From positions 55,618-119,617 of the forward strand of contig JAFGJX010000067.1 of assembly GCA_016928865.1 (NCBI GenBank): a stretch of DNA of 64,000 nucleotides. Direction: 5' to 3'. Position 1 is the stretch's first letter; every line of letters begins with the position of its first letter. The position numbers and the translations under genes are program-made. Origin of the DNA: Spirochaetota bacterium. GTDB taxonomy: Bacteria; Spirochaetota; UBA4802; UBA5550. Positions 30,714-40,277 of this stretch are shown here, one piece after another. The notes under the pieces were generated by a model that was not told the origin of the DNA, made no database searches, and worked only from the letters and a program-made list of their open reading frames with translations.

Positions 30714-31227
30714 AGGAACCTCAAAAAGTTAAATTAACGGATTATAGCAGATTGTTGAAATATTGAAAGCATAATTTCACGTCAATAGGCTTTTTTCTGC
30801 ATTAACCGGGATGGTGTCAGCCCGGATGATACAGAAAAGAGAAATCTCGTTCACAGTGTAAATATCGACAGCAGGAGTTTTTTTAATTAGACAAGTACCC
30901 GGCAGGGCTTTCCGGTGGACGTGAGAAGCGTTTTCTCGAAAATTCTATTTCACTACAAAAAATCGCTAATTTTTTATAAACAATTTTTAATATAAATAAT
31001 AATTATTTATTTTCTACTATTGACACAGGTGTGGATTTTTATTATCTATATTAAAGAAAGTACTCGAATTGTCTGCATTACGCTATCAAAAGGATACCTC
31101 AACGCGGATTTCAATGTACAGATGATCCTGAAGAGCATCTTGGTCAGGTTCGTGCATGATATTCCATATCTCAATGTGGTAAGATTTCACTTTTGTATGC
31201 GTTAAAATTTATTTGTCACGGTGCTAC

Positions 31228-33003
31228 ATGTATATACCCCCTGAAACGCTGGATCTTATCAGGAGCAAGGTTGCCATTCAGGATATTGTCAAGCGATATG
31301 TTCCATCATTGAAGAAACGGGGGAAGAATTATACCGGCCTGTGTCCATTCCACAAGGAAAAAACGCCGTCATTTTCAGTCTCTCCAGACAAGCAGATCTT
31401 CTACTGTTTCGGATGCCACACGGGGGGCAATATCTTTACCTTTATTTCAAAAATTGAGAGGCTGGATTTTCCGGAGAGCGTTAAATTTGTCGCAGACATT
31501 GCCGGCGTTCCAATCATTTCGGAGAAGAGGGGGGATACCGATGCCCTTGAGGCTTTTCACCGACTGAACCGGGGCGCCATGGAAATGTACCATGCATATA
31601 TCAAATCGCCTGCCGGCAAAAAGGGGCTCGGCTATATCGCCTCCAGAGGGGTGACGGAAGCGAGTATACGGGATTTTGCCATAGGCTATGCGCCTGATTC
31701 GTGGGACTATCTGGCCCGCGGCCTGATAAAGTCTGAACGGGACCGCGAGTATGCGGAAAGCATGGGCCTTATCAAGAGGAGCCAGAAACGCGCGAACAGC
31801 CATTACGACGTGTTTCGAAACAGGATCATCTTCCCGATATCCGATATAAACGGTCGCGTTGTGGGGTTCGGCGGGAGGACGATCGGCGACGATCCGCGCA
31901 AGTATATCAATTCGTCTGAATCCCAGGTTTTCAAGAAGAGGAACATACTGTACGGGCTTAACCGCGCTCGTGAATCGATAAAGGAGCTAAACCGGGCCAT
32001 TGTCGTCGAGGGATACCTGGATGTGATAGGGTGTCACCAGGCGGGAATAACAAATGTCATTGCGCCGCTCGGGACCGCGATTACCGCCGATCAGATCAGA
32101 CTTCTCGGCCACTATTGTACCGAGATAATATTCCTGTTCGACGCCGATTCGGCCGGCCTGAAGGCCGCCGCGCGGTCTCTTGATCTTTCTGAGGAGACAA
32201 ACCTGAACATCAGAATCGGAATGCTGCCGCAGGGTGATCCGTTTGACTACGTCACGACAAAGGGACCCCGCGAGTTCATGGCGGTAGTTGACACCTCGCT
32301 GCGACCGACAGATTTCAGGATAGCCCGGGTTATGGATGATTTTAGCGCCGCCGGCAGGGCGGGCACGCTGCTGCGGTTGTTTGCGGTCATACGGGACCTG
32401 AAACTTGAGACCGAGAGGAGCGAATATCTTAAGAAAATCAGCGCCTTGCTCAATGTCGATGAAAACTCTGTGCGGGCGGATTTTAAAAACTATATGACAA
32501 ATCAGCAGCCTGTTCCGGCGACAAGCGGGCGGCCGGGGCCGGTATCGAGCGAACAGGTCGATGTCGTAACCAGGGGATATCGAGACCTGATACGCCTGAT
32601 TTGCCATCATCCCGAACTCATCTCGAAAGCGGCGATCGATTTTACGATTGGAGAAATCCAGGATCAGCTCGCCCGGAATATATTGTGGAAAATGACCGAA
32701 CTGTACAATGAAAACCGTGAATTTTCAATCGATAAAATATTTGACTTTTTCACTTCCGGCCCGGAAATGGATTTTTTGAATCAGGCGATGAACGACGAGT
32801 TCCTGATCGAAAATCCCGGTTCGGCGTATACTGAAATTTATCTTAAAATGAAAGTTTACGAAATTGACGATAAAATCAACAGGTATGACGCCTTGTTGAA
32901 ATCGTCACCCGGGGTGAACTCAAATATATATCTGACTGAAATCGAGGTTTTAAGAAGGGAAAAGGAGAAACTGCTGAACTTCGTATACAACAAGGTTTCA
33001 TGA
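31228..33003 (+). CDS. dnaG: DNA primase
   Basis: Zinc ribbon CPFHKEKTPSFSVSPDKQIFYCFGCHTGGNIFTF and a TOPRIM domain (VVEGYLDVI...LFDADSAG). ATG 31228 preferred over TTG 31213. Confidence 0.92.
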   Translation: MYIPPETLDLIRSKVAIQDIVKRYVPSLKKRGKNYTGLCPFHKEKTPSFSVSPDKQIFYCFGCHTGGNIFTFISKIERLDFPESVKFVADIAGVPIISEKRGDTDALEAFHRLNRGAMEMYHAYIKSPAGKKGLGYIASRGVTEASIRDFAIGYAPDSWDYLARGLIKSERDREYAESMGLIKRSQKRANSHYDVFRNRIIFPISDINGRVVGFGGRTIGDDPRKYINSSESQVFKKRNILYGLNRARESIKELNRAIVVEGYLDVIGCHQAGITNVIAPLGTAITADQIRLLGHYCTEIIFLFDADSAGLKAAARSLDLSEETNLNIRIGMLPQGDPFDYVTTKGPREFMAVVDTSLRPTDFRIARVMDDFSAAGRAGTLLRLFAVIRDLKLETERSEYLKKISALLNVDENSVRADFKNYMTNQQPVPATSGRPGPVSSEQVDVVTRGYRDLIRLICHHPELISKAAIDFTIGEIQDQLARNILWKMTELYNENREFSIDKIFDFFTSGPEMDFLNQAMNDEFLIENPGSAYTEIYLKMKVYEIDDKINRYDALLKSSPGVNSNIYLTEIEVLRREKEKLLNFVYNKVS

Positions 33004-33094
33004 CGCCTGATGGTGCGCAGGAGCAGCAGCCGTTCCGGCCGAAGCGCGGACGAATGGTATTTATAAAATATATTATAAAGGACAGGATAGCAGC

Positions 33095-34867
33095 ATGAGC
33101 AAGAAAGAGATGACCCTGGACGCCGTTCCGGAAGTAAAAAAATTAATCGAGATAGGGAAGCTGAACGGCGAAGTGACGTATGACGAGATCAATGATGTGC
33201 TTCCCGACAAGCTGCTCAACTCGGAAAAGATAGACGATGTTTTTATCCTTCTCAATCAGATGGGCATCGAAGTCGTCGAGGAATCGACGCGGAAGGAGCA
33301 GGCGCTGCCCGGCGTAAAAAAGAAGGGCACAGCCGCTTCATCAAAGAAGAGCGTTGCTGCACAGGCGGAAGGCTCCCATGTTGACGATCCGATTCGCCTC
33401 TATCTGAAGGAAATCGGCAAGGTGTCTCTGCTCTCAGGGGACCAGGAGGTCGATCTCGCAAAGAGGATAGAGGACGGAGAGATTTTGATCGAAGAAACGG
33501 TCTATAACTCGACCCTTCTCGTCAACGACCTCATCAAGAATTATTCGAAGATAAAAAGCGGGAAGATAAAGCTCACCGACGTCCTGAAGGTAAATCGGCT
33601 CTATTATTTTTCTTCTGTAGATCTTGATAAGCTTGAAAAGAAGTTCCACGAGACCATGAAGGTCATTATCGAGGACGATAACAGAATCATACAGTTCGGG
33701 AACAAGCTCAAGAAGGTGGATCCGGAGTCCAAGAAGGCAGATGAATTCAGGGAAAAAATCGAGACGTCCAAGGCCAGCATTCGCAAGACGATACGGAACC
33801 TGGACATAAACGACAATGAGATTAACAAGCTTTCAGCTAAGATAAAATCGATGGTCGCGCGGATACAGGAAACGTATGAATTTTTCACAGAGATCGAGCA
33901 GGATTTTCACCGCGATCTCAAGGAGCTGAAGCACCTGGCGCGCAAGCTGGAAAAGGGCGAGAGCATTACCAAGATCTGCCGCGAGCTGGGGATCAAGAAC
34001 AAGGATGCGCTCCTGGATGTGATCAAAAACGTAAGAAATAACGAGCGGAAGATACGCAGGATCGAGCAGGAAGCGGGCGCATCGGCCGACGATATCATGG
34101 AGTGGGGCAAGCAGATAAATGCCGGCCAGAAAAAGATATCGGTGGCGAAGAAGGAGCTGATCAACGCGAACCTGCGTCTGGTGGTCTCCATCGCCAAAAA
34201 GTACGCGAACCGGGGCATGCATTTTTTTGATCTGATACAGGAGGGGAACATCGGCCTCATAAAGGCGGTCGACAAGTTCGAATACAAGAAGGGCTACAAA
34301 TTTTCGACATACGCGACCTGGTGGATCCGCCAGGCCATTACTCGCGCCATATCGGACCAGGCAAGGACCATCAGGGTGCCGGTCCACATGATCGAGCAGA
34401 TCAACAAGGTGATGCGGGAGACGCGGCTGTTTCAGCAGGAATTCGGCCGCGAGCCATCACCGGAAGAGCTTTCCGACCGGCTGGGATGGGTGGTCGGCAA
34501 GGTCAAGGCGGTTAAAAATGTGGCGCGCGAGCCGATTTCACTCGAGACGCCGGTCGGCGAAGAGGAGGATTCTCTCCTCGGCGATTTTATCGAGGACAAG
34601 GAGGTCGATTCACCGGCGAATACCGCGGCCTACCGGCTTCTTTCCGAGCAGATCAACGCAGTCCTGTCAACCCTTCCCGCACGGGAGCAGAAAGTAATCA
34701 GAATGCGGTTCGGGCTCGACGATGGTTACTCGCACACTCTTGAAGAGGTCGGATACGTGTTCAAGGTCACCCGGGAGCGCATACGTCAGATAGAAGCGAA
34801 GGCGCTCCGGCGGCTGCGACATCCGACCCGCGCCAGAAAACTCAAGGATTATCTGGACCACGTATAG
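33095..34867 (+). CDS. rpoD: RNA polymerase primary sigma factor
   Basis: Regions 1.1 to 4.2, including [41 protein letters not shown] and [28 protein letters not shown]. Confidence 0.95.
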
Positions 34868-34926: not shown

Positions 34927-37230
34927 ATGCGCCAGATAAAAAAAGTTTCAATTATCGGTGCCGGTTCATGGGGCACCGCGGTCGCCAAATCGATTGCGGA
35001 ATCAAAGCCGCATCTGAACGTTGTCATGTGGGCCTATGAAAAAGCCGTGGCCGTATCGATCAATACAAGGCACGAGAACACGGAATTTCTGCCGGGCATC
35101 ACCCTGCCAACAGCGATTACCGCTACGAACAGACTGGAGGAAGCGGTAACCGGCTCCACTGTAGTCATACTCGCCACACCATCCAAGGCTGCATACGAGG
35201 TGTGCCGGCGAATGTCCGCGTTCGTATCGCGGGAAATGTATGTCGGATTCCTCACCAAGGGCTTCTGCAAGATTGACGGCCGTGTCCTCACGATATCCCA
35301 GGCAATGGAACGGGCCATGCCCCAGACCGCGGGGGCGATTGTCGCCATCTCCGGGCCGAGCCATGCGGAGGAGGTTTGCCGTCGCTTTCATACCTGCCTG
35401 AACGCCGGAAGCATGTCGGAAGAAGCACGGTCGGCCATCGCGGGCCTGCTGACATCGGAGTGGATACAGTGCCGTACCACTGAAGATATACGCGCCGTTG
35501 AAGTGGGCGGCACACTCAAGAATCCGGCCGCGATCGCAGCAGGCATGATAAGCGCACTGCCGCGGTGCGGCGACAACCTCGCCGGCGCGCTCATGTCAGA
35601 AGCGCTCAGGGAGATGATCCGGCTGGGCGCTGTATTCGGCATCAGCGGAGAGAGCATGATCGATATATCGGGGCTCGGTGACCTCGTGGCCACGGCGCTG
35701 AGCCCCCACAGCAGGAACAGGCGATTCGGCAGGGACATCGCCGGACAGATCATGAAAAAGGGAGATACTCTGAACCTCTGGGACCGCGTGGTCCTCAGGA
35801 TCAGGCCGTTCAGCGTGATAGAACGGATGAGTGGAAAGCTGCATTACCTTGCGGAGGGCGCGTACGCGATCGAGCCGCTTATCGAGCTGGCGGAAAAAGA
35901 GCAGATCCCCATACCGGTGTACCGCGCGCTTTACGAGGTTCTGCTGCACAAGAAGGATCCATCACTCCTGATTGAGACCATCAAGGACCCTGAACGCTTT
36001 GACGACCTGTTTTTCAGCACCAAGATACAGATTGCCGACCGAAGAAGGGGACTCGAGTTGATCAAGGGGAAGGTTTTCAAGGAGCATATCATTGATCTTG
36101 CCATGGAGCGCTTTGTTTCCCGGAAGGGCAACGCCATGGTGCCGAACCAGCCTGACGACGTCATGGCGTCCCTCAGTGAATTCCGCGGATACGCGGGAAC
36201 AGCGGAAGATGAGAAGCGCATTATCATGAGTATCAACAGGGAAAACTACGCGGATTCAATGCGCGCTCTTGCCAGCGTATATATCGAGGAGATATCGGAC
36301 AGCTTCAGCAACCGTGTTAAATGGATGATGATATTCTTCCTTGTTTTTTCGCGCATCGCCGGCATTTTCATGCGGCGGGAGGGCAAGCTCGTGGTTTCCG
36401 GCTCTGTTGATGAATTGCGCCGGAGCTGCGGTTCGGCAACCATATTGTATGCGGCGCCGTTTGTGAACCGCTATGATTCAATTTTCGCCATGATGGCGAT
36501 TGCGCGGGCGCGTCTCCCCTTTCCCCGGTTCTTTGTCGACGCGGGAGTGCCGGCGCGCGACAGGTTTGTCCTGAAGCGGTGCGGCGGGTACACCGTAGAC
36601 CGGGGGAAGCTCGCCAACACGGTTTACCGCGAAACGCTGGCGCAGTACATTTCAACCATGGCCGGGTACGGGGTTCCGATGCTCTATGTTCTCTCCGGGT
36701 CGAGCACGGGATCAGGGAATTACGAACATGACGCGTTTATATCGGCCATTACCGATTCCATGTATCGGCATGCGGTCGAACTGGCGCTGGTGCCGTTCGA
36801 GGTGTCCTATCTGGACAGGCCGAAGGACGGGGAGGGAGCAGTATCTTTCAGGGACATCGTTGCCAATGTCGTCTGGGTCAATTTCTCAAGCCCGATCTTT
36901 CTGTCTGAATTCACGAAGCAGCCTCACATGCTGATGGGAATACCCGGGGTTATTGCGGGGATCTGGGAAAAAGAGAGAAAAGTATTCCCCCACTACCTCC
37001 TCTGCAGGGCGCTGGTCGACAATGATTATGCCATGCGGCACTCGGACGCGGTGGAATTTATCAAGAAATACATGCGTCGCGCCGGCAGGCGATTTGACTA
37101 CAACCCGGCAAAGGCGGCCAGGAAGGGAGTGCGGTATCTCGAAAAAAACGGGATTGCCGCGGTTGAAGGTGACACCATCCGGGTTAATGACAGGGAGCAG
37201 GTCGCTTTTTACGCCGGGCTCATCCCGTGA
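34927..37230 (+). CDS. gpsA: NAD(P)H-dependent glycerol-3-phosphate dehydrogenase fused to a PlsB/GPAT-like domain with a degenerate HX4D motif
   Basis: The first ~345 aa are GpsA (IIGAGSWGTAVA, SGPSHAEEV, GGTLKNPAAIAAG, SRNRRFG). Residues ~470-640 align with E. coli PlsB blocks I-IV (PFVNRYDS; GGYTVDRG; YVLSGSSTGSG; LVPFEVSY). Confidence 0.8.
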   Translation: MRQIKKVSIIGAGSWGTAVAKSIAESKPHLNVVMWAYEKAVAVSINTRHENTEFLPGITLPTAITATNRLEEAVTGSTVVILATPSKAAYEVCRRMSAFVSREMYVGFLTKGFCKIDGRVLTISQAMERAMPQTAGAIVAISGPSHAEEVCRRFHTCLNAGSMSEEARSAIAGLLTSEWIQCRTTEDIRAVEVGGTLKNPAAIAAGMISALPRCGDNLAGALMSEALREMIRLGAVFGISGESMIDISGLGDLVATALSPHSRNRRFGRDIAGQIMKKGDTLNLWDRVVLRIRPFSVIERMSGKLHYLAEGAYAIEPLIELAEKEQIPIPVYRALYEVLLHKKDPSLLIETIKDPERFDDLFFSTKIQIADRRRGLELIKGKVFKEHIIDLAMERFVSRKGNAMVPNQPDDVMASLSEFRGYAGTAEDEKRIIMSINRENYADSMRALASVYIEEISDSFSNRVKWMMIFFLVFSRIAGIFMRREGKLVVSGSVDELRRSCGSATILYAAPFVNRYDSIFAMMAIARARLPFPRFFVDAGVPARDRFVLKRCGGYTVDRGKLANTVYRETLAQYISTMAGYGVPMLYVLSGSSTGSGNYEHDAFISAITDSMYRHAVELALVPFEVSYLDRPKDGEGAVSFRDIVANVVWVNFSSPIFLSEFTKQPHMLMGIPGVIAGIWEKERKVFPHYLLCRALVDNDYAMRHSDAVEFIKKYMRRAGRRFDYNPAKAARKGVRYLEKNGIAAVEGDTIRVNDREQVAFYAGLIP

Positions 37231-37238
37231 CAGGGATG

Positions 37239-38648
37239 TTATACCCTGAACAGGTGCTCGAAGGTTCCGTACAGGACCTGCACGAGTTGTGATCGCCCGT
37301 CGACGGTACCCGACATCCCGTACAGGGCACCGCTGCGAGGGTTTTTTCCGGTCATGGTCCTGGCATACTCTACGCCCTTTTCGAGGTCTTCCACGAGCCG
37401 GTCGGCAACTCCCGGTACCAGGGTCTGCGGCATGGTCACGCAGAAATGTATGGCCGGTGGATTTTGAAGGCCGTTAAAACGCCATCCCTGCGAAATCATG
37501 TAATCGTTTACATGGAATATATCAACATCATTCGACCGAAAGCTGATCAAAAAGGTCGGATCTCCGATAATCTGGAGTTCCGGTATTCCCGAAACGCCTT
37601 CCTTAATGCGGTCGGCAACTTTCATGATTGCGGCAGTGGCCTTGAGATAGCCTTCCTCTCCGAGGTAGACCATGGCCGCCCAGGTTGAGGCGGTGAGGCC
37701 TCCGGAGCGGCTCCCGGTCATAGAGGGGGACGCATATATGCCGCCGGGCCAGTGGGCCATCTGGAAGAACTGATACCGGCGAAGCTTCAGGTTGCGGTAC
37801 AGGACAACCGAATTCCCCTTCAGGCCGAAGCCGAACTTGTGGGTATCGGCCGACATTGACGTCAGGCCCGGCAGACGAAAGTCGAAAACCGGGACCCGGT
37901 ACCCGAGCCGCTCTATCCAGGGGAGTATGAAACCGCCGAGGCATCCGTCCACATGAAAGCCGACATCGTGCTCCAGCGCAATATCTGAAAGCTCATCAAG
38001 AGGATCGATGAGTCCGTAGGGGTAATTGCCGGCGCTTCCGACAACCGCCACTGTATTGTCGTTGATAAGCTTTTTAACCTCTGCCGGGATTACGCGGAAG
38101 TCTTTTTCGTTCACCGGAGCAAGGACCATCCTGATGCCGAAGTACTCTCCGGCCTTGTGAAAGGCGGGGTGCGCCGTCAGAGGGAGTATTATCTCGGGCG
38201 CGGTGATCTTTTTTTCAACTAGGCCACGGTCGCGGTACACCTTCATCGGCAGCATGATGCTCTCGGAACCGCCGAAGGTGACGGTGCCGCAGATCTCGTC
38301 ATCGGGGTTGGCTTTACGCACCTTGTCGCCGTTCAGCATGCGCGCCGTCATGGAGACGATCTCGCTTTCGAATTTTGACATGCTGGGACAGAGATCGACC
38401 TGTAAAACGTTGACGTGAGAGAAAAATGAAAAAACCCTGTTAAGGAATTCGCGGTGTTCTTCACCGGCATGATAAAAGGTCCCGGATATCCTGCCGTTCT
38501 TCCACCTGGCGTTTTCTTCGTCCGCCATGATTGAAAGCTCATCGAGAATGTCGTCCCTGTCCCGTCCTGTTTCGGGAAGCCTCTCATAGCTGCCGAATCT
38601 TCCCCGGTATGGTTTGAATGGATCAACAATAGGTTTTTCTTCAGGCAT
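37239..38648 (-). CDS. PLP-dependent lyase/decarboxylase, sphingosine-1-phosphate-lyase-like
   Basis: The PLP-lysine block MSADTHKFGFGLKGNSVVLY closely matches the SPL signature (SADTHKYGFAPKG). The rest is a group II decarboxylase fold. Confidence 0.8.
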   Translation of the reverse strand: MPEEKPIVDPFKPYRGRFGSYERLPETGRDRDDILDELSIMADEENARWKNGRISGTFYHAGEEHREFLNRVFSFFSHVNVLQVDLCPSMSKFESEIVSMTARMLNGDKVRKANPDDEICGTVTFGGSESIMLPMKVYRDRGLVEKKITAPEIILPLTAHPAFHKAGEYFGIRMVLAPVNEKDFRVIPAEVKKLINDNTVAVVGSAGNYPYGLIDPLDELSDIALEHDVGFHVDGCLGGFILPWIERLGYRVPVFDFRLPGLTSMSADTHKFGFGLKGNSVVLYRNLKLRRYQFFQMAHWPGGIYASPSMTGSRSGGLTASTWAAMVYLGEEGYLKATAAIMKVADRIKEGVSGIPELQIIGDPTFLISFRSNDVDIFHVNDYMISQGWRFNGLQNPPAIHFCVTMPQTLVPGVADRLVEDLEKGVEYARTMTGKNPRSGALYGMSGTVDGRSQLVQVLYGTFEHLFRV

Positions 38649-38681
38649 ATGTTCCTCCCCTGCCGTCTGATCACGCCGGGT

Positions 38682-40277
38682 CTAGGGCGCGTTCAGCGCG
38701 GCGAATATCTTTTTGCTGCGTTTAAATAACTCGCGGTACTGGCAGTACATCCTGTCATAGACTGCCCGATTCGACGGATCGGGATGGAATGTCTTTCTGA
38801 TCCTGACAAGCCCGGGAAGCTCGCCGATATCGCGAATCCCGAGCCTGTTGAAGGCGAGCATTGCGGAGCCGCGCAGGGTCGTGCGGGCCGGATCCTCCAC
38901 CTGGTGGATGGGAACTCCCAGAACGTCCGCGTGTATCTGCGCCCAGACGTCCGAGAGGGCGCCGCCGCCGGCGAAGCGAAAGCCGGGGAATTTCCGACCG
39001 ATAAATTTCTCAGCAACCTCGCGTGTCCAGCGGTTGTTGTAGGCGAGGCTTTCCATAACGGCGCGCGTCATGTGCGCGCGTGTTGATCCGAGGGAAAGAT
39101 TGAAGAAACCGCCGCGGGCATTGCCGTTTTCCTCCGGGGTTATGCTGCCGTTCAGCCAGGGCATGAAAATAACGCCTTTGCTCCCGGCCGGTATGCGCGC
39201 GGCCATGCGATCGGCCCGGACATAAGCGTCATCCGGTATGCTGTCGCTCCCGAATTCATCCCGCGCGTAGACAATGTTGTTGAGGAAGAATTCAAGGGCC
39301 TTGCCGCCGGTGCCCTGTTCGGCGAAGAGGAGGTACCGGTCCTTCAGGGGGCTCGGCATCGTGGTCATGGCATGGAAGATATCGGTCTTTTTAAAGGGAA
39401 CATGGCAGGTGAGGACAAGGGAGGTGCCGATATATATCAACCCGTCGAAATCGCGGATCGCGCCAGACCCGATTGCGGAGGCGTTCGTGTCGTTCGTTCC
39501 CGCAATGACGCGTGTTGCGGGTGAGATGCCCAGTTCCCTTGCGACGGCGGGAAGCACGGTCCCGACGAATTCCTTGTTCGGAACAAGGTCAGGGAGCTTT
39601 TCGCGTGGCAGCCCTGCGAGATTGATAAGTGTGTCGTTGTATTCGGTGCAGCCCCATGCGCGGTTGTCAACGGCCATGAAGGGCAGCATCGTTTCCTGGG
39701 AGGCAGAGCAACGACCGGTCAGGCGGAGGGTGAGATAGTCCATCGGCTCCAGGAATTTCCATGATTGCTTATAGATGTCTTGCATCTCGTTTTTCAGGAA
39801 ATGAACATGTCCGATGGAATCGATCCCAGATTTGCTCGGCGCCAGGCCGGTGAGCCTGATCCACCGCAGCAGCTTGGTAATACCGTAGCCCTGGATATTG
39901 ATGATGCCGCGTATAATGTGCCGGTTATAGGGGGCACCGCGGGAATCGAGCCAGTGGATGGCGTTCATGACCGGTTTGCCGCCGGAGTCGACCGGGACGA
40001 TTACGAAAAACTGTGAGTCGCAGATGACGGCTTCTATCAGACGCGAAGGAACGCCCGATTGGGCAATCGCCTTTTTTGCAGCACTCTTTGCGCCCTCCCA
40101 CCATGCATGAGGGTCCTGCTCGACGCCGCCGCCGGGGAGGATTGAAATCGGTACTTTAACCGAGGCGCTTGCCATCACGCGTCCAGCGTCGGATATGACC
40201 GCCGCCTTGGGACCGCCGCTGCCCAGATCGATCGCGAGGACGTACCGTGATTTCGCGACGCTGCTATCAGCTTTCAT
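38682..40277 (-). CDS. FGGY-family carbohydrate/polyol kinase
   Basis: YVLAIDLGSGGPKAAV, GTNDTNASAIGSGA, GGGALSDVWAQIHADVLGVPI. Confidence 0.85.
   Translation of the reverse strand: MKADSSVAKSRYVLAIDLGSGGPKAAVISDAGRVMASASVKVPISILPGGGVEQDPHAWWEGAKSAAKKAIAQSGVPSRLIEAVICDSQFFVIVPVDSGGKPVMNAIHWLDSRGAPYNRHIIRGIINIQGYGITKLLRWIRLTGLAPSKSGIDSIGHVHFLKNEMQDIYKQSWKFLEPMDYLTLRLTGRCSASQETMLPFMAVDNRAWGCTEYNDTLINLAGLPREKLPDLVPNKEFVGTVLPAVARELGISPATRVIAGTNDTNASAIGSGAIRDFDGLIYIGTSLVLTCHVPFKKTDIFHAMTTMPSPLKDRYLLFAEQGTGGKALEFFLNNIVYARDEFGSDSIPDDAYVRADRMAARIPAGSKGVIFMPWLNGSITPEENGNARGGFFNLSLGSTRAHMTRAVMESLAYNNRWTREVAEKFIGRKFPGFRFAGGGALSDVWAQIHADVLGVPIHQVEDPARTTLRGSAMLAFNRLGIRDIGELPGLVRIRKTFHPDPSNRAVYDRMYCQYRELFKRSKKIFAALNAP

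What the first reader, a model, noticed from the sequence alone, without database searches (positions are those of the whole stretch)
34927..37230. GpsA fused to a PlsB/GPAT-like domain that lacks the catalytic HX4D histidine
The 767-aa ORF has an intact GpsA module in its first ~345 aa, with the NAD fold and substrate motifs present. A ~120-aa linker follows, then a region that aligns block-by-block with E. coli PlsB acyltransferase motifs. Block I VPCHRSHMD corresponds to AAPFVNRYD here. Block II GAFFIRR corresponds to GGYTVDR. Block III FVEGGRSRTG corresponds to YVLSGSSTGSG. Block IV LIPIYIGY corresponds to LVPFEVSY. The Asp of HX4D and the block II Arg are kept. The catalytic His is Phe (or Asn with a 1-residue shift), and the block III Glu/Arg are Ser. 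So G3P synthesis is physically fused to a GPAT-like domain that is predicted to be inactive or mechanistically different. That domain might bind G3P or acyl chains as a regulator, or act as a channelling scaffold.
Basis: partly seen in the sequence, partly recalled or inferred. Interest (0 to 1): 0.6.

Follow-up and report, generated by a model that had tools for sequence, protein, structure and literature searches.

The report
GpsA fused to dead GPAT domain
This spirochaete gene joins a working glycerol-3-phosphate dehydrogenase to a copy of the next enzyme of membrane-lipid synthesis that has lost its catalytic residues but is still kept by selection. Leptospira relatives keep that second half intact, so the pair shows how a two-enzyme fusion becomes an enzyme with a non-catalytic appendage.

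Summary
Window 34927-37230 (+) is one uninterrupted 767-aa ORF.

- **N-terminal half (aa 6-349):** a complete GpsA, and the only gpsA found in this 90%-complete genome.
- **C-terminal half (aa 356-767):** it matches no Pfam, NCBIfam or PDB entry on its own. It is nevertheless a GPAT1/PlsB-type acyltransferase module. Distant fused relatives score above the PF01553 cut-off at the same position. The AlphaFold model matches human GPAT1 at Z 22.8 over 339 residues.
- **Lost residues:** the catalytic His is Phe here and takes 14 different residues across 44 orthologues. Block III (PEGTRSRTG) is missing in all 44.
- **Still selected:** the dead core has dN/dS of 0.04-0.32.
- **New here:** Leptospiraceae carry the same fusion with all four blocks intact, share a 22-aa GpsA insertion with it, and have a stand-alone gpsA but no canonical PlsB (0/75). 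The window's order has canonical PlsB (77/79), no PlsX (0/81), and the fusion as its only gpsA.

Best reading: a once bifunctional GpsA-GPAT whose acyltransferase half became a pseudoenzyme. Its present role, membrane tether or lipid sensor, is inferred and not shown. The scan noted this architecture before in two other genomes.

The parts
34927..37230 (+). Whole gene: 767-aa GpsA / pseudo-GPAT fusion (stop codon included)
   Evidence: Single ORF. Collinear orthologues.
34942..35424 (+). GpsA NAD(P)-binding domain (aa 6-166), with GAGSWG at aa 11-16 and TKG at aa 110-112
   Evidence: PF01210 E 3.6e-40. Alignment to 3k96 and 1z82.
35485..35973 (+). GpsA substrate-binding / C-terminal domain (aa 187-349), with LKN (197-199), GDLVAT (251-256) and SRNRR (262-266)
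   Evidence: PF07479 E 8.8e-32 and PF20618. Motifs are invariant in orthologues.
35749..35826 (+). Fusion-family-specific insertion of about 22 aa in the GpsA half (about aa 275-300, ...LNLWDRVVLRIRPFSVIERMS...)
   Evidence: Present in both fusion clades and absent from stand-alone GpsAs of the same phylum. Highly conserved but low pLDDT in the full-length model.
35992..36381 (+). It includes the hydrophobic/amphipathic helix at aa 462-481.
   Evidence: AF2 helices at high pLDDT. It lies inside the range aligned to GPAT1, model 20-412. The helix at 463-481 is the most hydrophobic 19-aa stretch in the clade average.
36382..36921 (+). Degenerate acyltransferase alpha/beta core (aa 486-665)
   Evidence: Homologous position scores above the PF01553 cut-off in relatives P0020, P0030, P0036, P0041, P0048 and P0049. 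Fold matches to GPAT1, PlsC and plant GPAT. hhalign to own PlsB.
36451..36477 (+). Block I remnant AAPFVNRYD (aa 509-517): Phe512 replaces the catalytic His, Asp517 is kept
36583..36603 (+). Block II remnant GGYTVDR (aa 553-559): Gly553 is invariant, Arg559 is kept here but in only 17/44 orthologues
36685..36717 (+). Block III remnant YVLSGSSTGSG (aa 587-597): the PEGTRSRTG motif is lost
   Evidence: The loop has pLDDT below 50.
36787..36810 (+). Block IV LVPFEVSY (aa 621-628): Pro623 is invariant (44/44)
36976..37227 (+). C-terminal winged-helix-like subdomain (aa 684-767). It is lost in some related lineages.
   Evidence: Lies within the range aligned to GPAT1 and also matches CRP/FNR-type winged helices at Z about 8-9. 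Truncated orthologues of 675-740 aa occur.
33095..34867 (+). Context: rpoD (sigma-70), 59 bp upstream on the same strand
   Evidence: Pfam Sigma70 r1-r4. No promoter-like or terminator-like site on the + strand in the gap. rpoD is directly upstream in 39 group-A loci.

Best explanation
**What it is.** The gene encodes an active, housekeeping NAD(P)H-dependent glycerol-3-phosphate dehydrogenase (GpsA), which reduces DHAP to G3P. Its C-terminus carries a GPAT1/PlsB-type acyltransferase module that is catalytically dead, that is, a pseudoenzyme domain.

**How it arose (inferred).** The module is the remnant of an ancestral bifunctional GpsA-GPAT, which would have carried out G3P synthesis followed by its first acylation. 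That form survives with all four acyltransferase blocks intact in Leptospiraceae. In the window's order, first acylation is done by a separate canonical PlsB. The fused domain lost its catalytic His and its G3P-phosphate site (block III). It kept its fold framework, the block I Asp, the block II glycines, the block IV Pro and an amphipathic or hydrophobic helix.

**Shown here.**
- Homology and fold of the domain.
- Loss of the catalytic motifs across the clade.
- Purifying selection on the dead domain.
- The complementary gene content of the two lineages.

**Inferred, not shown.**
- GpsA activity.
- Absence of any acyltransferase activity.
- The present role of the dead domain. The most likely role is to hold G3P synthesis at the membrane surface next to PlsB, and/or to bind an acyl-chain ligand (acyl-CoA, acyl-ACP, LPA or PA) so that G3P supply follows lipid status.
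For: **GpsA half looks functional.**
- Both Pfam domains score far above their cut-offs.
- All catalytic and NAD motifs are in register with solved GpsAs.
- It is the only PF07479 hit in this genome and in each of 64 fusion-bearing genomes of the order.
- It is the most conserved part of the protein: 59% mean pairwise identity, dN/dS 0.05-0.13.

**C-terminal half is a GPAT-type domain.**
- phmmer of the C-terminal part against 1.84 billion representatives finds only 57 proteins. Nearly all full-length ones are about 670-830 aa with the match in their C-terminal half. Of 16 such proteins scanned, 14 carry GpsA domains upstream of the match, and 7 of those also score above the PF01553 cut-off at the matched position; the other two were truncated forms.
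- The AF2 model has pLDDT 85 and pTM 0.84.
- Its top fold match is human GPAT1: Foldseek E 1.2e-11, VIA Z 22.8, 339 residues aligned. PlsC and plant GPAT follow at Z about 11.
- hhalign to this genome's own PlsB is collinear over 213 columns.
- The nearest ESM Atlas clusters are all PF01553.

**It is dead.**
- Position 512 takes 14 different residues in 44 orthologues.
- Block III is absent in 44/44.
- Arg559 is kept in 17/44.
- H366A and D371A in PlsB abolish most activity, and the block III arginines are proposed to hold the G3P phosphate (bioRxiv 10.1101/2023.04.30.538836).

**It is kept.**
- It was found in 69/79 genomes of the order.
- dN/dS of the dead core is 0.04-0.32 in 8 close pairs.
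- D458, R534, G553, Y574, P623 and S660 are 100% conserved.

**Single origin, with the live form in Leptospiraceae.**
- A shared insertion of about 22 aa in the GpsA half is absent from stand-alone GpsAs.
- The fused GpsA halves form one clade with SH-aLRT 100.
- All 6 Leptospiraceae sequences have H, D, R and PEGTRSRTG.
- Their AT core is 74% identical on average, against 50% for their GpsA half. This is the reverse of the window's clade.

**Complementary gene content.**

| Feature | Window's order | Leptospiraceae |
|---|---|---|
| Canonical PlsB (PF19277) | 77/79 | 0/75 |
| Stand-alone gpsA | only in f5, the family where the fusion was not found | 30/31 |
| PlsX | 0/81 | 29/31 |

**Housekeeping context.** rpoD lies directly upstream in 39 loci.
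Against: - No biochemical data exist for any member of the family.
- The contrast between the two lineages amounts to two independent lineages, so it is a comparison and not a statistic.
- The domain is dispensable on long time scales. The fusion was not found in family f5, which has a stand-alone gpsA instead. Several f1 and f3 lineages have lost the C-terminal 80-100 aa. dN/dS rises to 0.32 in the most eroded family.
- The hydrophobic helix at 463-481 is strongly hydrophobic only in the window's genus. Elsewhere it is merely amphipathic, so membrane tethering is weakly supported.
- The full-length model has pTM of only 0.63, so no defined arrangement of the two halves is available.
- The direct profile match to PlsB is weak (probability 12%). 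The C-terminal part alone hits no Pfam, NCBIfam or PDB sequence, so membership rests on transitive homology and on fold.
Confidence: 0.8

Rival explanations
1. The C-terminal domain is still an acyltransferase. It would use a non-canonical catalytic arrangement, for example Asp517 with another base, or a different acceptor, so that the protein is truly bifunctional.
For: - Asp517 is kept in 39/44 orthologues, Pro623 in 44/44 and Gly553 in 44/44.
- The domain is under purifying selection.
- The fold and groove framework are retained.
Against: - The His position is hypervariable, with 14 different residues.
- No His or other new polar residue is conserved specifically in this clade. Nearly all residues conserved at 80% or more are shared with the live clade.
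- Block III is missing in 44/44.
- From general knowledge, every characterised member of this fold (PlsB, PlsC, GPAT1, PatA, LpxM) uses the His.
- A canonical PlsB is present in 77/79 genomes of the order.
Confidence: 0.07
2. The C-terminal domain is an evolutionary relic without a present function. It would be retained only because truncation is slow or mildly harmful to the folding of GpsA.
For: - Family f5 manages with a stand-alone gpsA.
- C-terminal truncations occur in several lineages.
- Mean identity of the dead core is low: 33% against 59% for GpsA.
Against: - dN/dS is 0.04-0.32 in all eight pairs tested, similar to the GpsA half in several of them.
- Most family members searched have no internal stop codon. 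Three of about 140 matches contain a single stop.
- Six positions are 100% conserved across an order-level clade.
- The domain still folds with high predicted confidence.
Confidence: 0.08
3. A more specific version of the main reading: the dead domain docks onto the separate canonical PlsB, as a pseudoenzyme paired with its active paralogue, and hands G3P to it directly.
For: - PlsB and the dead fusion co-occur in the same order.
- PlsB is peripheral to the membrane and forms homodimers (bioRxiv 10.1101/2023.04.30.538836).
- Pseudoenzymes often partner their active paralogues (general knowledge).
Against: - PlsB dimerises through its roughly 300-aa C-terminal domain. The fusion lacks that domain: it has no PF19277 hit, and only about 100 aa follow the core.
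- No interaction test was run.
- The two genes are not linked (contigs C96 and C4).
Confidence: 0.12

Closest known systems
Leptospiraceae GpsA-like / acyltransferase fusion (806-863 aa; e.g. Leptospira levettii TGM25338.1; L. ellinghausenii GBF43216.1, annotated 'bifunctional glycerol-3-phosphate dehydrogenase/glycerol-3-phosphate acyltransferase'; Leptonema illini WP_002772772.1)
   Same: - Same domain order and length.
- Same insertion of about 22 aa in the GpsA half.
- The GpsA halves form one clade.
- The same framework residues are conserved in the C-terminal half.
   Different: - The Leptospiraceae proteins keep H(R)SHLD, GAYxVDR, PEGTRSRTG and VPxxLSYE, and score above the PF01553 cut-off.
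- Their GpsA half is the faster-evolving half, and those genomes also have a stand-alone gpsA but no canonical PlsB.
- No experimental work on them was found in the paper library.
PlsB / mitochondrial GPAT1 (glycerol-3-phosphate 1-O-acyltransferases)
   Same: - Best fold match: human GPAT1 8e4y, Z 22.8 over 339 residues. The match includes the helical region before the core and the subdomain after it.
- Four collinear blocks.
- The VYRE motif after block II matches VFRE/Q in PlsB.
   Different: - No catalytic His and no block III.
- No PlsB N-terminal membrane domain.
- No dimerising C-terminal domain of about 300 aa: PF19277 is not detected.
- Fused behind GpsA.
Canonical bacterial GpsA (e.g. 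T. maritima 1z82, Coxiella 3k96)
   Same: Both Pfam domains and all NAD and substrate motifs are present.
   Different: - Only about 28-30% identical to stand-alone GpsAs of the same phylum.
- Carries an insertion of about 22 aa and a 412-aa C-terminal extension.
Non-catalytic uses of GPAT-family proteins (Drosophila Minotaur/GPAT2 in piRNA biogenesis, PMC3708527)
   Same: This is a precedent for a GPAT-fold protein working without acyltransferase chemistry. Active-site mutants of Minotaur keep their function, according to the paper's abstract.
   Different: Minotaur is eukaryotic, not fused to GpsA, acts in an unrelated process and retains the motifs.

Membership tests
GpsA, NAD(P)H-dependent glycerol-3-phosphate dehydrogenase (PF01210 + PF07479) | Both Pfam domains score above their gathering cut-offs | tested here: met
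   138 bits against a cut-off of 23.1, and 110.7 bits against 25. NCBIfam NF000940 scores 202.6 against 202.
GpsA, NAD(P)H-dependent glycerol-3-phosphate dehydrogenase (PF01210 + PF07479) | GxGxxG dinucleotide fold plus the catalytic and substrate motifs (TKG, LKN, GDLxxT, SRNRR) | tested here: met
   In register with 3k96, 1z82 and 2pla. Invariant in 13 orthologues.
GpsA, NAD(P)H-dependent glycerol-3-phosphate dehydrogenase (PF01210 + PF07479) | Reduces DHAP to G3P | not testable with these tools
   Inferred from the motifs and from its being the only gpsA hit in the genome.
LPLAT / GPAT acyltransferase superfamily (PF01553) | Pfam PF01553 match above the cut-off | tested here: not met
   No hit at E <= 10 for aa 356-767 scanned alone and none in the full-length scan.
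LPLAT / GPAT acyltransferase superfamily (PF01553) | Common descent and fold | tested here: met
   Transitive phmmer links to PF01553-positive fusions, for example P0030 at E 1.5e-23, which itself matches PF01553 at E 1.3e-16. Fold matches to GPAT1, PlsC, plant GPAT, PatA and LpxM.
LPLAT / GPAT acyltransferase superfamily (PF01553) | Block I HX4D with catalytic His | tested here: not met
   Phe512 in the window. 14 different residues across 44 orthologues, with His in 2. Asp517 is kept.
LPLAT / GPAT acyltransferase superfamily (PF01553) | Block III (F/P)EGxRSRxG, the G3P-binding motif | tested here: not met
   LSGSSTGSG in the window. Absent in 44/44 orthologues.
LPLAT / GPAT acyltransferase superfamily (PF01553) | Block II Gly/Arg and block IV Pro | tested here: met
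   G553, R559 and P623 are present in the window. Across the clade they are kept in 44/44, 17/44 and 44/44.
PlsB proper (PF19277 GPAT_C, PlsB_N) | GPAT_C C-terminal region and N-terminal membrane domain | tested here: not met
   No PF19277 hit. The genome's true PlsB, on contig C4, matches PF19277 at E 1.6e-53.
Pseudoenzyme domain | Homologous to an enzyme family, lacks the catalytic residues, and is kept under purifying selection | tested here: met

The most novel reading that the evidence does not exclude
Spirochaetes inherited a two-enzyme GpsA-GPAT fusion, and different lineages have specialised it in opposite directions.

In the window's order, the dead GPAT half would have been converted into a sensor for lipid or acyl-chain ligands, or into a membrane-docking device. 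That device would gate G3P production by the cell's only GpsA according to membrane-lipid status. This would be a built-in feedback link between precursor supply and PlsB-dependent membrane synthesis.

Leptospiraceae keep the live acyltransferase half. They also carry a reverse-order fusion whose GpsA-like half looks eroded.
Probability: 0.25. Interest if true: 0.72.

Novelty: new variant of a known kind. Interest (0 to 1): 0.55.

Why it matters
How bacteria match the supply of G3P to the rate of membrane phospholipid synthesis is still unsettled. The control of PlsB itself is an open problem (bioRxiv 10.1101/2025.11.03.685888).

Here the sole G3P-producing enzyme of a whole order of uncultured spirochaetes is permanently joined to a non-catalytic copy of the enzyme that consumes G3P. 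A catalytically intact version survives in Leptospira, some of whose species can be manipulated genetically.

- This gives a natural matched pair for asking what a dead GPAT fold can do: tether to the membrane, sense acyl-CoA, LPA or PA, or act as an allosteric partner.
- It is a clean example of how a fusion of consecutive pathway enzymes decays into an enzyme plus a pseudoenzyme once a second route (PlsB) is present.
- It has a practical side for annotation. Pfam does not detect the domain, so these proteins are filed as plain GpsA, 'NAD(P)-binding domain-containing protein' or hypothetical proteins. The Leptospira forms are filed as PlsC-type LPA acyltransferases.

Tried and rejected
- **Direct searches with the C-terminal part alone** (aa 356-767) against Pfam, NCBIfam and PDB sequences at E <= 10 found nothing.
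- **Profile of 13 orthologues against PDB sequences** gave only a marginal GPAT hit: 9vuq_E, E 0.006.
- **Complex prediction** of the GpsA half against the C-terminal half, each with its alignment, returned 'no answer' (score 0.00). It is no evidence either way.
As a result I could not obtain the context of P0040, a 797-aa relative with both halves canonical, or DNA for the 95%-identical P0003.
With P0040 it found only an unrelated plain GpsA.
- **Relocated catalytic His.** I considered His615 in YRH, which is invariant in the 13 closest orthologues. It is not conserved in the wider clade, so I rejected it.
- **His at position 512 in two orthologues** (L019, L061). Both lack block III and their nearest relatives have Leu or another residue there. 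I treat these as chance.
- **Literature searches** for the fusion found no description of it. The term sets were: Leptospira with GPDH, acyltransferase and fusion; GpsA with PlsB, 'fusion protein' and spirochete; Leptospira with GPAT and phospholipid biosynthesis; and 'bifunctional glycerol-3-phosphate dehydrogenase'. The library lacks most subscription journals.
- **Model coordinates and PAE** are not exposed. I could not map conserved residues onto the groove or judge packing between the domains.
Full report
**1. What is there**

Window 34927-37230 (+) is a single 767-aa ORF. It lies 59 bp downstream of rpoD, which follows dnaG on the same strand. No promoter-like or terminator-like site lies in the gap on the + strand. 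A GGTGA sits 6 nt before the ATG. rpoD is directly upstream of the orthologous gene in 39 of the loci fetched from six families of the same order. The gene is therefore probably expressed with the housekeeping sigma factor; this is an inference.

**2. The N-terminal half is a normal-looking GpsA**

- PF01210 covers aa 6-166 (E 3.6e-40) and PF07479 covers aa 187-349 (E 8.8e-32). NCBIfam GpsA models score up to 250.8 bits.
- Alignment to the solved GpsAs 3k96, 1z82 and 2pla puts GAGSWGT, TKG, GPSHAEEV, LKN, GLGDLVAT and SRNRRFG in register. All are invariant in 13 orthologues.
- It is the only true gpsA found in this genome, which has 3.81 Mb in 131 contigs and is 90% complete.
- One feature is unusual. 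An insertion of about 22 aa (about aa 275-300) is absent from stand-alone GpsAs. It is highly conserved but has low pLDDT in the full-length model.

**3. The C-terminal half is a GPAT1/PlsB-type module that sequence libraries miss**

Searched alone, aa 356-767 hit nothing in Pfam, NCBIfam or PDB sequences. Four independent lines nevertheless place it in the family.

- *Transitive homology.* phmmer against 1.84 billion cluster representatives finds only 57 proteins. Nearly all full-length ones are about 670-830 aa, with the match in their C-terminal half. I scanned 16 of these with Pfam. Fourteen carry GpsA domains ahead of the match, and seven of the fourteen also score above the PF01553 cut-off exactly where the window's domain aligns. 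An example is P0030, with phmmer E 1.5e-23 and PF01553 E 1.3e-16. The other two scanned were truncated forms.
- *Fold.* An AlphaFold2 model built on 36 sequences has pLDDT 85.3 and pTM 0.84. Its top Foldseek match is human GPAT1 (8e4y, E 1.2e-11). VIA-align gives Z 22.8 over 339 residues, with model residues 20-412 against chain residues 122-577. That is well above PlsC (Z 11.5) and plant GPAT (Z 11.4). The match starts at model residue 20, so the supposed linker (aa 356-485) is part of the module.
It is weak, however (E 0.0024, probability 12%).
- *Language-model features.* The nearest ESM Atlas clusters are all PF01553 families.

**4. It is catalytically dead across the whole clade**

I extracted 50 fused genes from genomes of seven families and aligned them. 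The table gives the state of the key positions.

| Position | Window's order (n = 44) | Leptospiraceae (n = 6) |
|---|---|---|
| Catalytic His (512) | F11, Y9, L6, A4, N2, R2, H2, G2 and six singletons | His, 6/6 |
| Block I Asp (517) | 39/44 | 6/6 |
| Block II Arg (559) | 17/44 | 6/6 |
| Block III PEGTRSRTG | 0/44 | 6/6 |
| Block IV Pro (623) | 44/44 | 6/6 |

- The two group-A proteins with His at position 512 lack block III, and their nearest relatives carry other residues there. I read them as chance.
- No His anywhere in aa 356-767 reaches 80% conservation in the window's clade. Almost every residue that does reach it is shared with the live clade. These are framework residues: G381, F384, D458, Y508, P533, R534, G553, Y567, E569, Y574, G582, P623 and S660.
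- In PlsB, the H366A and D371A mutants lose most activity. The block III arginines are proposed to hold the G3P phosphate (bioRxiv 10.1101/2023.04.30.538836).

**5. It is nevertheless kept by selection**

- The C-terminal module was found in 69 of 79 genomes of the window's order.
- Nei-Gojobori dN/dS for the dead core is 0.04-0.32 in eight close pairs. The GpsA half gives 0.05-0.13 in the same pairs.
- The constraint is weaker than on a live domain. Leptospiraceae pairs give 0.016-0.029 for their core.
- Mean pairwise identity in the window's clade is 59% for GpsA and 33% for the core. In Leptospiraceae the order is reversed, 50% and 74%.
- Erosion continues in places. Several f1 and f3 lineages have lost the last 80-100 aa, leaving ORFs of 675-740 aa. 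The fusion was not found in family f5.

**6. Origin and the complementary pattern**

Both fusion clades share the insertion of about 22 aa in the GpsA half. Stand-alone GpsAs from Leptospiraceae and from family f5 lack it. On a tree of the GpsA half, the fused sequences form one clade against these stand-alone GpsAs with SH-aLRT 100. The caveats are long branches and only seven outgroup sequences. Family f15 is Leptospiraceae: L057 is 92% identical to a Leptospira levettii protein.

Gene content is complementary between the two lineages.

| Gene | Window's order | Leptospiraceae |
|---|---|---|
| Fused gene, state of AT half | 69/79, dead | 70/75, live |
| Canonical PlsB (PF19277; about 865-aa ORFs) | 77/79 | 0/75 |
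| Stand-alone gpsA | only in f5 | 30/31 |
| PlsX | 0/81 | 29/31 |
| PlsY | 22/81 | 22/31 |

PF19277 was found in essentially no other spirochaete family sampled. This genome's own PlsB is an 864-aa ORF on contig C4, with PF01553 and PF19277 (E 1.6e-53).

The simplest history runs as follows.
- The ancestor was a bifunctional GpsA-GPAT.
- Leptospiraceae kept it live.
- In the window's order, first acylation passed to PlsB, and the fused acyltransferase lost its chemistry but not its fold.

This rests on two independent lineages only. It is a contrast, not a statistic.

**7. How it most likely works**

*Shown:* the architecture, the fold, the motif loss, purifying selection and the pathway context.

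*Inferred:*
- The protein is the cell's G3P synthase.
- The dead module has a non-catalytic role. The remnants kept are the block I Asp, the block II glycines, the block IV Pro and the helices that in PlsB, PlsC and GPAT1 face the membrane and the acyl chain. The catalytic base and the G3P-phosphate site are the parts lost.
- This pattern fits retained membrane-surface association or acyl-chain/lipid binding better than retained G3P binding.
- The helix at aa 463-481 is the most hydrophobic stretch of the clade average. It is strongly hydrophobic only in the window's genus, so tethering is only weakly supported.
- Docking onto PlsB is possible. However, the fusion lacks the C-terminal domain through which PlsB dimerises.

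**8. Novelty**

- No paper describing the fusion was found.
- Public annotations call the window-type proteins plain GpsA, 'NAD(P)-binding domain-containing protein' or hypothetical. They call the Leptospira type 'LPA acyltransferase', with one 'bifunctional' label.
- This scan noted the same architecture before in two other genomes (e1-759369 and e1-3245731), with the same reading.
- I class it as a new variant of a known kind: a fusion of consecutive pathway enzymes with one half turned into a pseudoenzyme.

Noticed in passing
L069:1472-3400 (-) (genome G384, Leptospiraceae); similar ~670-708-aa ORFs in 28 of the 31 family genomes searched: A third GpsA-related gene in Leptospiraceae is a reverse-order fusion. 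PF01553 acyltransferase sits at aa 60-201, with HX4D (NHLSHLD) and EGTRSRDG intact. It is followed by PF01210 and PF07479 (aa 315-632), in which GxGxxG, LKN and RNR are not found. This is a live acyltransferase with an eroded GpsA-like half, the mirror image of the window's protein. Only one sequence was inspected.
   Followed up: partly
G000 contig C80:5156-5680 (L009) and the window's order generally: PlsY (PF02660) is present in this genome and in 22/81 genomes of the order, including all 10 of the window's genus. PlsX (PF02504) was found in 0/81. The source of acyl-phosphate for PlsY is unexplained.
   Followed up: partly
P0040 (797 aa; ENA, on a 5.18-Mb contig; organism unknown): This fused relative has both halves canonical: GSGSWGT, GPSFAKE, LKNP and SRNR in one half, and HKSNLD, SYTVDR, PEGTRSRNG and VPVTISYE in the other. 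It is about 31% identical to both clades. It is a candidate for a truly bifunctional, ancestral-like form. Its organism was not found in genome contigs.
   Followed up: partly
window 31213-34867 (+) and loci L013-L061: The dnaG-rpoD-gpsA-fusion gene order holds in the window. rpoD is immediately upstream of the fusion in 39 group-A loci from six families, but in none of six Leptospiraceae loci.
   Followed up: yes
G000 contigs C120 (L004:1339-3387 -) and C62:31514-31894: There are other long acyltransferase ORFs in this genome. One is an Aas-like AMP-binding + PP-binding + PF01553 protein. Another is an 843-aa ORF with PF01553 and a sub-threshold PF19277 match, which was not examined.
   Followed up: no
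window 37239-40277 (-): Convergent with the fusion gene are a 469-aa PLP-dependent decarboxylase-family protein and a 531-aa FGGY kinase. A link to lipid metabolism was not examined.
   Followed up: no
Genomes G108, G258, G376 (family f4, genus g23): No PF07479 (gpsA) hit and no fusion were found, although PlsB and PlsY are present and the genomes are 90-94% complete. The source of G3P in these genomes is unclear.
   Followed up: no
L019 (G349) and L061 (G100): These two group-A orthologues have a His at the HX4D position but no block III. I read them as chance substitutions at a hypervariable site.
   Followed up: partly
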